Source of the DNA: Octopus vulgaris
Lineage: Eukaryota
Assembly: GCA_951406725.2 (NCBI GenBank)
Contig: OX597820.1
Location: 122,946,001-123,010,000 of the forward strand
Length of the DNA stretch: 64,000 nucleotides
Direction of reading: 5' to 3'
The position numbers were made by a program. The first letter of the stretch is position 1. Every line of letters starts with the position of its first letter. Shown piece by piece: positions 16,901 through 19,900 of this stretch.

Positions 16901-19900
16901 CACTAGAAATAACAGCCAAAAGCTTTAACCGCAAAATAACATTAATACCGTAAACCAGGAGAAAATTGAAAAACTTTTACCCTGTAATTTCTTAGACGAT
17001 GCACCGTTTCATCTACCGTTTAATGGTAAACTAACCTGATTAAATTAAATCAAGCCAATCCACCATAGGCCCTTAGACTCATCAGTAAGAAATAGCCAAA
17101 TCGGAACAGATATTTTTCACGAGGCATTCCTCTTGCTACCTCGGCAATATCTGACCTAAAATTTTCAAATCGTCGCACTCGCGCCAAATTTATCGGCAGC
17201 AAATAAACCACCGATTCCGTTACGGAACTAACCAGAAAATTCATAATTAATCAATATAGGGTGGCAAAAAAAATTTTGTAGAATTCTTTTGCCACCAGCG
17301 GCCTAGTAGGAAAAAATTAAATAGTCATAAACCATTTTTACGTTCAACATCACAATCAAGGAACGGCCATAATAGGCCATTCACCCACTAGAAATAACAG
17401 CCAAAAGCTTTAACCGCAAAATAACATTAATACCGTAAACCAGGAGAAAATTGAAAAACTTTTACCCTGTAATTTCTTAGACGATGCACCGTTTCATCTA
17501 CCGTTTAATGGTAAACTAACCTGATTAAATTAAATCAAGAGGCCGCTGGTGGCAAAAGAATTCTACAAAATTTTTTTGCCACCCTATATTGATTAATTAT
17601 GAATTTTCTGGTTAGTTCCGTAACGGAATCGGTGATTTATTTGCTGCCGATAAATTTGGCGCGAGTGCGACGATTTGAAAATTTTAGGTCAGATATTGCC
17701 GAGGTAGCAAGAGGAATGCCTCGTGAAAAATATCTGTTCCGATTTGGCTATTTCTTACTGATGAGTCTAAGGGCCTATGGTGGATTGGCTTGATTTAATT
17801 TAATCAGGTTAGTTTACCATTAAACGGTAGATGAAACGGTGCATCGTCTAAGAAATTACAGGGTAAAAGTTTTTCAATTTTCTCCTGGTTTACGGTATTA
17901 ATGTTATTTTGCGGTTAAAGCTTTTGGCTGTTATTTCTAGTGGGTGAATGGCCTATTATGGCCGTTCCTTGATTGTGATGTTGAACGTAAAAATGGTTTA
18001 TGACTATTTAATTTTTTCCTACTAGGCCGCTGGTGGCAAAAGAATTCTACAAAATTTTTTTGCCACCCTATATTGATTAATTATACATATATACGACATC
18101 TTCTTTCAGTTTCCGTCTACCAAATCCACTCATAAGGCATTGGTTGGCCCGAGGCTATAGCAGAAGACACCTGCCCAAGATGCCACGCAGTGGGACTGAA
18201 TCCAGAACCATGTGGTTGGTTAGCAAGCTACTTACCACACAGACATCCCTGCGCCTATGTAAGAAAGAGCAGAAATAGTACCTCTTTTTCTTTAAAATGT
18301 ATTAATGTTGAGATTACAGTTTATGAAGGATTATAAACGGGTCATGCAGGTCCTTGCAAAGATGTATGGAAGATAAAAAAAAGATGTGGGAATAAACTGC
18401 ATTGGTAGCAGCATGAAGTTTAAATTTCATCAAAAGGAAAGTAATAGACGGTTCATAAAAGTTAAGCCTTTATAAAGGAACCCAGTCAGCTGGAGTTACG
18501 AGTAGGTAGTTTTGTTTGTTGTTTGTTCCTTCTCGAGCCATGCCTGGCTCATAGGGACCGGTTTCCCGGTTTCTTGGCGTATAGGTTCCCCACCTGGACG
18601 GGACGCCGGTCCGTCGCAGGTGAGCTGCAAGATGCAGGAGGAAAGAGTGAGAGAAAGTTGTGGCGAAAGAGTCAGCAGAGGTTTCGCCATAACCTTCTGC
18701 CAGAGCCGCGTGGACCCTAGGTGTTTTCGCTCATAAACACACACATCGCTCGGTCTGAGATTCGAACCCGCGAGTCCGCTGCTCTCACCACTAGGCCATG
18801 TGCCTCCACATGAGTAGGTAGTTCCGCTTGTTTATGGAGATATATAGATTGAAAGGAGAATAAAATAAAATAACTTTGAATTCCTTAATTATTTAGGCGA
18901 AAGAGGTATCTTTATAATCGTGTGTGTGTCTGTGCGTGTATGTGAATGGGTACATAAACGAAAGTGCACCCAAAAGAAACCGGGATTTTGTAATGTTATT
19001 TTATTCACTTAGTTTTACATGTTTACTCAGTTATCGCCTTCAAAATATTCTCAAGTTTAAGCGATGTATCGGTTCAGAAGTTCTTTCATTGTTCGAAGCA
19101 GTCCTGGAGCTGTTGCGAAGTGATGCCTTTTAACTCCTCCATCGTTTTCCTCTTCACCTCTTCCACATCTGCAAATTCCGTAGCACCAGGTTTTGTAACC
19201 AGCGATGACCTTCGAAAAAAGGTCCGGAATAACATCCAACTCTTCTTCCAGTTCACAGCAGGCATTCATCCGTAACTGCTTTTGATTTTCCGTGAGCAGA
19301 CGAGGCACAGAATTTACTGCAACTATTTTCATTCACAATTTTTCGCTCAAAATTCGTTGGTAGGAACCCCAGGACGCAACAATCATTTCATCAAGTTCAT
19401 CAATTGTTCAGTGATGTTCCTTCAAGATCAGTTCATGAATTTTCATGATGTTTTCTTTCGGAAGATCGACGATGGCCTTCAACGAGGTTGTTCTTCAAGC
19501 GGCAAGTGACCATTCCTAAAGCGTGAAAACCACTCATCAGCTTGTGTTTTGCTCATAGCAGCGTCCTTGTTTGAAGAATGGCAAGTGTTTCGGCCGCCGT
19601 TTTCCCCAGCAGAAGTAAGAATTTCATAGAAGCAGGCTCTTCCTTCCTTCCAGCCATCCCCAAAATCGACGAAGGTGAAAGAAGCACTACAAAACAAAGA
19701 CGCAACAGTGGCAGTAGGAAATCAGCTGGTACCTCCTGATACCTCCAGTGGCTACTAGCGGCGGAAGCCTGAACTACAAAGGGCTTGTCCCGCAGAGAAA
19801 CGTTTCCGGTTACTTTTGGTTACCATCTCTCTCTATATATATTGTGTTATTCCGTTACAGTGATACTTGTTTCAGCCATTAGACTTCGGTCATGCTGGAG

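What the first reader, a model, noticed from the sequence alone, without database searches (positions are those of the whole stretch)
17500..17580. Both HHR arrays share a head-to-head, twin-primed architecture with a breakpoint in stem II
Seen: in both arrays the left arm is ribozyme-sense on minus and the right arm on plus. RNA 3' ends therefore face the host DNA and 5' ends meet at 17539/17540 and 55320/55321. The outer ends fall at different unit positions, none at the predicted cleavage site. Both right ends share TAT microhomology with the TA target, all four arms exceed one unit length, and one arm of each array starts inside HHR stem II. Inference: both 3'-OH ends of a cut in (TA)n primed cDNA internally on circular or multimeric RNA (analogous to L1 twin priming and to inverted Penelope insertions), and the two cDNAs were then joined. 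This would be a genomic footprint of double-ended rolling-circle retrotransposition.
Basis: inference. Interest (0 to 1): 0.78.

Follow-up and report, generated by a model that had tools for sequence, protein, structure and literature searches.

The report
Head-to-head hammerhead repeat insertions, Penelope-style
Two short non-coding tandem repeats carrying hammerhead-ribozyme motifs each sit in TA-rich DNA as two opposed arms, the insertion pattern already known for Penelope-like retrotransposons, so this is a clean example of a known pattern, not a new mechanism.

Summary
The architecture is real. Array 1 has a 484-bp unit. Its arms are 14448-17539 (ribozyme sense on minus, 6.39 units) and 17540-18084 (plus, 1.13 units). 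Array 2 has a 360-bp unit, with arms 54780-55320 and 55321-55874 (1.50 and 1.54 units). In both arrays the RNA 5' ends meet in the middle and the RNA 3' ends face the host DNA.

Array 1 is bracketed by a 10-bp target-site duplication. Two uninterrupted paralogues of the host repeat carry that 10-mer only once at the homologous place. The whole inverted composite therefore went in as one event, and it is not a foldback assembly artefact.

Array 1 has a complete type I hammerhead. Array 2 has only a hammerhead-like motif with a core change (U4 to C) that Rfam does not detect, so its polarity is less certain.

Simple inversion is excluded for both arrays by geometry, and simple snap-back for array 2.

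The pattern is partial tandems, an inverted 5'-truncated copy joined head-to-head, an 8-10 bp duplication and AT-rich targets. It is the published signature of Penelope-like elements, whose protein cleaves and extends both DNA strands in vitro.

The best reading is non-autonomous, retrozyme-like repeats mobilised by a Penelope-like enzyme, with cDNA primed from both ends of the cut. A circular template is not shown. No census across the rest of the genome was possible.

The parts
14448..17539 (-). Array 1 left arm: 6.39 units of the 484-bp repeat, ribozyme sense on the minus strand. The RNA 3' end (unit position 439) is at 14448. The RNA 5' end (unit position 250, inside hammerhead stem II) is at 17539.
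   Evidence: TRF; BLAST of the unit against the window; lengths; unit-by-unit variants
17540..18084 (+). Array 1 right arm: 1.13 units, ribozyme sense on plus. It starts at unit position 1 and ends at unit position 61. The last 3 nt (TAT) could belong to the unit or the target.
17539..17540 (.). Inversion junction of array 1: blunt, no shared bases, not the centre of a symmetric palindrome.
14437..14446 (+). Left copy of the 10-bp target-site duplication ACATATATAC. It is followed by one extra C (14447) before the repeat begins.
   Evidence: two of four uninterrupted paralogues carry this 10-mer once, followed by GAC
18085..18094 (+). Right copy of the 10-bp target-site duplication. The identical stretch is 13 bp if the ambiguous TAT is counted.
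17750..17856 (+). Complete type I hammerhead of the right arm. Stem I is 8 bp, the core is CUGAUGA (17758-17764), stem II is 68 nt (17765-17832), GAAA is at 17833-17836, stem III is short and self-complementary, and GUC is at 17846-17848 with cleavage predicted after 17848.
   Evidence: descriptor; Rfam RF00163 at 22 bits, E=0.0031, below the gathering score of 34; fold
14570..17093 (-). Span holding the six complete hammerheads of the left arm: 17093-16987, 16610-16504, 16126-16020, 15642-15536, 15158-15052, 14676-14570. A 5'-truncated one also abuts the junction (about 17539-17473).
   Evidence: Rfam lists five of them within 15000-18600 at 22 bits
54780..55320 (-). Array 2 left arm: 1.50 units of the 360-bp repeat. 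The outer end is at unit position 238 and the inner end at unit position 55. Base 55320 is shared with the right arm.
55321..55874 (+). Array 2 right arm: 1.54 units. The inner end is at unit position 1 and the outer end at unit position 194. The last 3 nt (TAT) could belong to the unit or to the (TA)n target.
55657..55702 (+). Hammerhead-like type I motif of array 2. Stem I is CACACG/CGUGUG (6 bp), the core is CCGACGA (U4 to C), stem II is 15 nt with 3 bp, followed by GAAA. Stem III is the 8-nt perfect palindrome ACCAUGGU. GUC is followed by predicted cleavage after 55696. The right arm starts inside its stem II equivalent at 55321.
   Evidence: relaxed descriptor; coordinates; not detected by Rfam
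54995..55040 (-). The same hammerhead-like motif in the left arm.
54750..54779 (.). (TA)n target on the left of array 2 (30 bp).
55875..55894 (.). (TA)n target on the right of array 2 (20 bp). A duplication cannot be read in pure (TA)n.
20863..21269 (+). Uninterrupted paralogue of the host repeat that array 1 split, used as an 'empty site'. Other copies lie at 37716-38134 (-), 62895-63302 (-) and 55984-56368 (+).

Best explanation
Both loci are single insertions of short, non-coding, hammerhead-bearing tandem repeats (retrozyme-like, non-autonomous). They were put in by a Penelope-like (reverse transcriptase plus GIY-YIG nuclease) machinery encoded elsewhere in the genome.

Proposed sequence of events:
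1. The nuclease makes a staggered cut in TA-rich DNA, 10 bp apart at array 1.
2. Each of the two 3'-OH ends primes reverse transcription at an internal site of a template RNA longer than one unit, either multimeric or circular.
3. The two cDNAs grow towards each other.
4. Their 3' ends are joined by a template switch or end joining with 0-1 nt of overlap. This gives two arms with RNA 5' ends in the middle and RNA 3' ends outside.

Shown here: the architecture, the single duplication, the TA-rich targets, the polarity of array 1, and the misfit of simple inversion and simple snap-back.

Inferred: the enzyme family, priming at both ends, and the nature of the template.
For: 1. Array 1 is one event.
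- The left and right flanks are co-linear halves of one host repeat. They overlap by 10 bp on three uninterrupted paralogues.
- Two of four paralogues carry ACATATATAC once, followed by GAC, exactly as in the right flank.

2. The polarity fits priming from both ends.
- In the left arm the top strand that continues from the left duplication copy is antisense to the hammerhead. In the right arm the bottom strand is antisense.
- The plus sense of unit 1 also folds far better than its complement as a circle: -140.2 kcal/mol (z -4.6) against -81.8 (z -2.2).

3. End positions do not fit other simple models.
- The ends are 439/61 and 250/1 for array 1, and 238/194 and 55/1 for array 2.
- A simple inversion would need the outer left end and the inner right end to be contiguous in the unit. 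They are 45 and 122 nt apart.
- Snap-back copying cannot give array 2 in either direction. The left arm runs 44 nt past the right arm's end. The right arm continues past position 238, where the left arm already meets the flank.

4. The targets are TA-rich. Both sites lie in the 5.1% of the window that is within 10 bp of a (TA)>=4 run.

5. It is unlikely to be an assembly foldback. The junctions are not symmetric. In the window the only inverted matches with less than 3 kb between the arms and identity of about 96% or more belong to the two arrays; the other three such matches are 87-91% identical.

6. The literature describes the same pattern for Penelope-like elements.
- (TA)n targets and tandem/inverted insertions (PMC8557442, passages).
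- The purified protein cleaves and extends both strands and starts at internal RNA sites not homologous to the target (PMC11167929, Main text).
- Animal retrozymes are proposed to be non-autonomous derivatives of these elements (preprint 10.64898/2026.07.22.740005, abstract and sections 14 and 16).
Against: - No reverse transcriptase or GIY-YIG domain is present in the window. None of 68 stop-to-stop ORFs of 90 aa or more had a Pfam hit above its curated cut-off; two had sub-threshold, unrelated hits. The link to a Penelope-like enzyme is therefore by pattern only.
- Array 2's polarity depends on a motif with a non-canonical core that Rfam does not see.
- The two arms are not identical. Unit 1 position 96 is A in the right arm and G in all 6 left units. 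Unit 2 positions 206 and 228 are A and G in the right arm and T and T in both left copies. If both arms were copied from one RNA, these must be later changes or copying errors.
- The 30-40 bp 'tail' typical of Penelope-like insertions is not clearly present. The outer ends differ by 44 nt in array 2 but by 106 nt in array 1.
- There are only two loci, and no reads to confirm the junctions.
- The left arm of array 1 may have grown after insertion by unequal crossover.
Confidence: 0.6

Rival explanations
1. Priming from one end only, followed by self-priming (snap-back) of the cDNA or a template switch onto itself. This makes the inverted arm, which is then joined to the other side of the break by microhomology.
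For: A self-priming model has been proposed for Penelope-like inverted repeats, with palindromes at the junction (PMC3846280). For array 1 the geometry allows it: the 545-bp right arm could be a copy of left-arm units. Both right ends carry 3 nt of TAT shared with the target, as expected for a microhomology join. A 36-nt near-palindrome lies 8 nt from the start of the array 1 right arm.
Against: Geometry excludes the simple form for array 2 in both directions. The junctions are not at the centre of a palindrome. The right arm of array 1 differs from the left-arm units it would have copied at unit positions 15, 31 and 96.
Confidence: 0.14
2. The tandem array was inserted in one orientation, or arose by local amplification, and was rearranged later. 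The rearrangement would be an inversion with a deletion, or a second independent insertion of the same family right at the first one's 5' end.
For: Satellite-like local amplification by unequal crossover is the model favoured for retrozyme arrays in the 2026 preprint (section 16). Penelope-like proteins also nick their own AT-rich sequences (PMC11167929).
Against: An inversion would need one breakpoint exactly at the insertion boundary plus a 45-nt deletion (array 1) or a 122-nt deletion (array 2), and this would have to happen twice independently. A second insertion would leave its own duplication or host bases at the inner junction, and none are there.
Confidence: 0.1
3. A DNA-level event: double-stranded multimeric repeat fragments, for example from extrachromosomal circles, were captured head-to-head in a chromosome break by end joining.
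For: The inner junctions are blunt or share 1 nt, as in end joining. Tandem repeats are a known source of extrachromosomal circles (recalled, not checked).
Against: A clean 10-bp duplication verified by empty sites is not expected from fragment capture. Fragment capture does not predict a TA-run preference at both sites. It also does not predict that both composites put the ribozyme-sense 3' ends outside.
Confidence: 0.07
4. An assembly artefact: chimeric or foldback long reads, or a mis-join inside a tandem repeat.
For: Tandem/inverted Penelope-like structures are known to trouble assemblies (PMC8557442). No reads could be examined here.
Against: A foldback read gives a symmetric palindrome and an inverted flank. 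Here the arms meet out of register, the flanks of array 1 are co-linear halves of one host repeat, and they carry a proper duplication. Two unrelated units show the same design. Apart from the two arrays, the window has only three other close inverted matches, at 87-91% identity.
Confidence: 0.05

Closest known systems
Tandem/inverted insertion structure of endonuclease-containing Penelope-like elements (Arkhipova et al. 2013, PMC3846280; Craig et al. 2021, PMC8557442)
   Same: Partial tandems. An adjacent inverted 5'-truncated copy joined head-to-head. One short duplication around the whole composite (8-10 bp reported; 10 bp here). AT-rich or (TA)n targets. A hammerhead in the repeated part. 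The ability to carry non-coding or foreign sequence in trans.
   Different: There is no RT/GIY-YIG ORF here or anywhere in the 64-kb window. The repeated unit is the whole element, 484 or 360 bp, not a pseudo-LTR flanking an ORF. Both arms exceed one unit. No clear 30-40 bp tail. No palindrome at the junction.
Metazoan non-LTR retrozymes (Cervera and de la Pena 2020, PMC7229834; review PMC7761336)
   Same: Non-coding tandem repeats of a few hundred bp, each with a type I hammerhead. GC is below 50% (37% and 47%). No LTR. A duplication longer than 4 bp. Highly structured plus-sense RNA.
   Different: In the passages I searched, PMC7229834 has 0 occurrences of 'inverted' or 'orientation', so no opposed arms are described there. 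Unit 1 (484 bp) is larger than the 150-300 bp or 170-400 bp quoted. Its stem II is 68 nt. Unit 2's core is non-canonical. Circular RNA was not tested.
L1 twin priming
   Same: The second 3'-OH of a staggered cut primes internally on the same RNA. The result is an inverted 5' part joined to a direct 3' part inside one duplication.
   Different: No poly(A) and no LINE sequence. Both primings are internal. The template is repetitive, so both arms can exceed one unit. The enzyme family is different.
Plant LTR retrozymes (Cervera et al. 2016, PMC4918200; seen in search listings and as described in PMC7761336)
   Same: Non-autonomous hammerhead elements thought to move through circular RNA.
   Different: Plant LTR retrozymes have type III hammerheads in LTRs, a PBS and PPT, 4-bp duplications and Ty3-gypsy-type mobilisation. 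None of these features is present here.

Membership tests
Hammerhead ribozyme type I (Rfam RF00163) | Conserved core CUGANGA ... GAAA, an A15.1-U16.1 pair, and a non-G base at the cleavage site | tested here: met
   Array 1: CUGAUGA, GAAA and GUC are present in all 7 complete copies.
Hammerhead ribozyme type I (Rfam RF00163) | Score at or above the curated gathering score (34 bits) | tested here: not met
   Array 1 scores 22 bits. The shortfall comes with the 68-nt insertion in stem II and a G-U closing pair. Array 2 gives no hit at E<=10.
Hammerhead ribozyme type I (Rfam RF00163) | Conserved core in array 2 | tested here: not met
   The core is CCGACGA, i.e. U4 is C, and the pair closing stem II is U-U. 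The three helices, GAAA, GUC and a palindromic stem III are present.
Hammerhead ribozyme type I (Rfam RF00163) | Self-cleavage | not testable with these tools
   Needs in vitro transcription of monomer and dimer constructs.
Metazoan non-LTR retrozyme | Tandem non-coding repeats of a few hundred bp, each with a type I hammerhead, GC below 50%, and no LTR/PBS/PPT | tested here: met
   Array 1 meets it fully. Array 2 meets it only if the degenerate motif is accepted.
Metazoan non-LTR retrozyme | Expression as small circular RNA | not testable with these tools
   No transcriptome is available. The only data are circular folds, which are more stable than shuffles (z -4.6 and -6.4).
Penelope-like element insertion | Partial tandem plus an inverted 5'-truncated copy, joined head-to-head | tested here: met
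   Both arrays. The polarity of array 2 is less certain.
Penelope-like element insertion | A short duplication around the whole composite, with an AT-rich or (TA)n target | tested here: met
   Array 1 has a 10-bp duplication checked against empty sites. In array 2 the target is (TA)n, so a duplication cannot be read. TA-run proximity is shown.
Penelope-like element insertion | A 30-40 bp 'tail' at one end | tested here: inconclusive
   The outer ends of array 2 differ by 44 nt (unit positions 194 and 238). Those of array 1 differ by 106 nt.
Penelope-like element (autonomous) | An ORF with a telomerase-like RT and a GIY-YIG nuclease | tested here: not met
   None of 68 ORFs of 90 aa or more in the window has such a Pfam hit. 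The arrays can at most be non-autonomous dependants.
Penelope-like element (autonomous) | Sequence similarity of the unit to a pseudo-LTR of an autonomous element in the same genome | not testable with these tools
L1 twin priming | A LINE-1 sequence with a 3' poly(A) at the direct arm | tested here: not met
   No poly(A) at either outer end. This is an analogy of mechanism only.

The most novel reading that the evidence does not exclude
These two loci are in vivo footprints of reverse transcription primed from both 3'-OH ends of one Penelope-type staggered cut on a circular, or at least multi-unit, retrozyme RNA. That would make them the genomic counterpart of the both-strand extension seen in vitro. 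It would also be the first insertion-architecture evidence that animal retrozymes are moved by Penelope-like enzymes and do not merely expand locally.
Probability: 0.4. Interest if true: 0.6.

Novelty: new member of a known kind. Interest (0 to 1): 0.45.

Why it matters
How animal retrozymes move is still described as open. The 2026 preprint asks for work on their mobilisation mechanism and favours local amplification (section 16). How Penelope-like elements make their tandem/inverted structures is also unresolved (PMC8557442).

A retrozyme-like array that carries the full Penelope-type insertion signature, with a duplication checked against empty sites, links the two questions. It also gives a simple prediction to test genome-wide: head-to-head junctions, permuted ends, TA targets and 8-10 bp duplications. 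It does not reveal a new kind of mechanism.

Tried and rejected
- Rfam at gathering thresholds over the whole window gave 0 hits.
- A strict hammerhead descriptor found one further hit at 5125-5196. I rejected it as chance because its fold is no better than shuffles (z +1.0).
- I looked for unit 1 or unit 2 copies elsewhere in the window. There are none, apart from one weak 58-bp match at 27792-27841 at 74% identity.
- I looked for an RT or nuclease ORF in the window and found none.
- I checked for other ribozyme classes in array 2 through Rfam at E<=10 and found none. The listed hits are microRNA-like hairpins far below their gathering scores and come from the inverted repeat or from TA repeats.
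- I considered the 10-bp duplication as a chance feature of a TA-rich microsatellite. I rejected this because paralogues have the 10-mer once at the homologous place.
- I examined the four outer ends for a common start motif and saw nothing convincing.
- Literature: 'retrozyme' with 'head-to-head' returned 0 papers. 'Retrozyme' with 'inverted' returned 15 papers, 12 listed. In the four of these that I opened, 'inverted' either referred to Penelope-like elements or occurred only in the reference list. The other listed papers I saw only as titles. 'Twin priming' with 'Penelope' returned 3 papers, none on this topic by title.
- Not used: genome contigs (prokaryotes only), the phage, plasmid and E. 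coli collections, protein searches, and structure or complex prediction.
- No supplementary files were opened. The supplements of PMC11167929 (figures S1-S2) and of the 2026 preprint may bear on start sites and array structure.
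Full report
**What is there**

Tandem Repeats Finder reports a 484-bp repeat from 14448 to 17539 (6.4 copies, 99% matches). BLAST of one unit against the window shows that the array continues from 17540 to 18084 on the opposite strand. A second, unrelated 360-bp repeat occupies 54780-55320 on one strand and 55321-55874 on the other. The arm lengths are 3092, 545, 541 and 554 bp, or 6.39, 1.13, 1.50 and 1.54 units. Neither unit has another copy in the window, apart from one weak 58-bp match.

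**Ribozymes and polarity**

A strict type I hammerhead descriptor finds seven complete motifs in array 1: six on the minus strand of the left arm and one on plus at 17750-17856. The descriptor requires CUGANGA, a closed stem II, GAAA, a stem III hairpin, a non-G base at the cleavage site, and stem I.

Rfam's Hammerhead_1 model aligns end to end at 22 bits. E is 0.0031 in a 201-nt search, and the score is below the gathering score of 34. The alignment shows a long insertion in stem II, which is 68 nt here. All core bases are canonical. The pair closing stem II is G-U. Stem III reads ACGGUGCAUCGU; by my own reading of the sequence (not a tool result) it is self-complementary if G-U pairs are allowed, as in the dimer-type animal hammerheads described in PMC4209133 (passages).

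Folded as a circle, the plus sense of unit 1 is much more stable than its complement: -140.2 kcal/mol (z -4.6) against -81.8 (z -2.2).

Array 2 is weaker. Rfam gives no hammerhead at E<=10 in a 2.2-kb search or in a 101-nt search, and the strict descriptor finds nothing. Allowing one core mismatch reveals a compact type I motif at 55657-55702 (+) and 55040-54995 (-):
- stem I: CACACG/CGUGUG
- core: CCGACGA
- stem II: 15 nt with three pairs
- GAAA
- stem III: the perfect 8-nt palindrome ACCAUGGU
- GUC at the cleavage site

This has the 6-bp helix I, short helix II and short palindromic helix III that PMC4209133 gives for animal type I hammerheads. However, U4 is C and the closing pair of stem II is U-U.

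Shuffled windows give 0.8 such relaxed hits per 64 kb on both strands, which is about 0.005 per unit. I relaxed the descriptor after seeing the motif. I therefore treat the motif as a probable hammerhead derivative that gives a polarity, not as a shown ribozyme. The fold asymmetry of unit 2 is small (z -6.4 against -4.4).

**Ends and junctions**

For array 1, unit position 1 is 17540. The left arm runs, in RNA sense, from position 250 at the junction to position 439 at 14448. The right arm runs from position 1 to position 61. The predicted cleavage site is 309|310 and stem II is 226-293, so the left arm starts inside stem II. No end falls at the cleavage site.

For array 2, unit position 1 is 55321. 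The left arm runs from 55 to 238 and the right arm from 1 to 194. The cleavage site would be 16|17. Position 1 lies in the 15-nt stem II region.

The junction at 17539/17540 is blunt. At 55320 one A could belong to either arm. Neither junction is the centre of a symmetric palindrome.

The chance that one arm of each array starts in stem II is about 0.26 x 0.08 = 0.02. This is my hand calculation from the lengths above. It is post hoc and depends on the array 2 motif.

**One insertion event at array 1**

The two flanks of array 1 are the two halves of a roughly 410-bp host repeat that has an internal (CA)n(TA)n tract. Four uninterrupted copies lie in the window: 20863-21269, 37716-38134, 62895-63302 and 55984-56368. 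On three of them the alignments of the left and right flank overlap by 10 bp. Two of the four read ...TATATATACATATATACGAC..., with ACATATATAC present once. At array 1 this 10-mer is present on both sides, at 14437-14446 and 18085-18094, and GAC follows only the right copy.

This is a 10-bp target-site duplication. It is 13 bp if the ambiguous TAT at the right end is counted. One extra C lies at 14447. The whole inverted composite is therefore enclosed by one staggered cut.

For array 2 both flanks are pure (TA)n, 30 and 20 bp, so a duplication cannot be read. Both sites lie in the 5.1% of the window that is within 10 bp of a (TA)>=4 run. The product 0.05 x 0.05 is about 0.003.

**Which mechanisms fit**

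The geometry fits priming from both ends. With a 10-bp stagger that leaves 3' overhangs, the top-strand 3'-OH carries the left duplication copy and continues into antisense sequence (the left arm). The bottom-strand 3'-OH carries the right copy and also continues into antisense sequence (the right arm). This is what two cDNAs primed from the two ends would give. The two cDNA 3' ends then meet with 0-1 nt of overlap.

A later inversion would require the outer left end and the inner right end to be adjacent in the unit. They are 439 and 1 in array 1, and 238 and 1 in array 2, so 45 and 122 nt would have to be deleted in addition.

Snap-back of a single cDNA cannot produce array 2 in either direction:
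- The left arm extends 44 nt (unit positions 195-238) beyond the point where the right arm meets the flank.
- The right arm continues past position 238, where the left arm meets its flank.

Snap-back remains geometrically possible for array 1 only.

A foldback read artefact would give a symmetric palindrome and an inverted flank. Neither is seen. Among inverted matches with less than 3 kb between the arms, only those belonging to the two arrays reach about 96% identity or more. The other three are at 87-91%.

**Unit variation**

The left-arm units of array 1 differ only by three private indel or cluster events. Position 96 is A in the single right-arm copy and G in all six left-arm copies. In array 2 the arms differ at positions 206 and 228. 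Both fall in the 44-nt segment between the two outer ends. There are also three single-C indels.

This near-identity fits a copy from one circular monomer. It fits equally well a transcript of a homogeneous source array or later homogenisation. It does not decide the template question. The fixed differences between arms are mild evidence against both arms being faithful copies of one RNA.

**Comparison with what is known**

Arkhipova et al. 2013 (PMC3846280, passages) describe Penelope-like insertions with these features:
- two direct pseudo-LTRs plus an adjacent inverted one, all inside duplications of 8, 9 or 10 bp
- a preference for simple AT-rich targets
- trans-mobilisation of foreign sequence
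- an empty-site proof of the same kind as used here

They propose self-priming.

Craig et al. 2021 (PMC8557442, passages) restate the partial tandem plus inverted 5'-truncated copy. They add (TA)n targeting and note that the formation of these structures is not understood.

Frangieh et al. 2024 (PMC11167929, Main text) show three things in vitro. A purified Penelope-like protein cleaves AT-rich DNA on both strands and extends both. Reverse transcription starts at internal RNA sites not homologous to the target. Unprocessed multi-copy RNA is the main substrate.

Cervera and de la Pena proposed circular RNA as a template for more-than-unit copies of these elements (PMC4209133) and for animal retrozymes (PMC7229834; PMC7761336). 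Li et al. 2026 (preprint; abstract and sections 14 and 16) argue from phylogeny that animal retrozymes derive from Penelope-like pseudo-LTRs, favour local amplification, and call the mobilisation mechanism open.

In the passages and sections I searched, none of these describes opposed arms in retrozyme arrays. 'Retrozyme' with 'head-to-head' returns no paper in the library.

**Verdict**

Double-ended priming is the best fit. The circular template is not shown. No RT or nuclease gene is in the window, so the enzyme assignment is by signature only.

**What stayed unchecked**

- All other genomic copies of both units.
- Read support for the junctions.
- RNA circles.
- Ribozyme activity.
- Paper supplements.

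The organism was not identified. The window is 36% GC and rich in microsatellites.

Noticed in passing
window 14200-14447 + 18085-18260; 20863-21269; 37716-38134; 55984-56368; 62895-63302: A dispersed host repeat of about 410 bp with an internal (CA)n(TA)n microsatellite occurs five times in the window at 80-91% identity. One copy is split by array 1, so its own microsatellite served as the insertion target.
   Followed up: partly
window 55515-55558 and the matching left-arm positions (unit 2 positions 195-238): Both base substitutions that distinguish the two arms of array 2 (unit positions 206 and 228) fall inside the 44-nt segment between the two outer ends. The chance of this is about 0.015 if substitutions are placed at random (hand calculation). 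The 44-nt offset is close to the 30-40 bp 'tail' between two start sites reported for Penelope-like elements. This is unexplained.
   Followed up: partly
window 17548-17583 and each unit of array 1: A 36-nt near-perfect hairpin lies 8 nt from the 5' start of the right arm. Rfam scores it as mir-5728-like at 25.6 bits, far below the gathering score of 100. Palindromes at the 5' end of pseudo-LTRs are reported for Penelope-like elements (PMC3846280).
   Followed up: partly
window 7620-7898: A 290-bp stretch that matches its own reverse complement at 91% identity. It may be a hairpin-forming or MITE-like element.
   Followed up: no
window 50112-50595 and 52439-52677: A 184-bp tandem repeat (2.6 copies, 84% matches) has a related copy in inverted orientation about 2 kb away (87-88%). 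By eye the unit looks like a tRNA-derived SINE. This was not tested.
   Followed up: no
window 25369-26955; 5241-5630; 13423-13724; 41958-42293; 54317-54522: Very long microsatellites: (TATG)n of 1.6 kb, several (TA)n of 200-390 bp, and (TAA)n of 336 bp. Pure (TA)>=4 runs cover 2.9% of the window.
   Followed up: no
whole window: None of 68 stop-to-stop ORFs of 90 aa or more has a Pfam match above its curated cut-off. No protein-coding gene was recognised in the 64 kb.
   Followed up: partly
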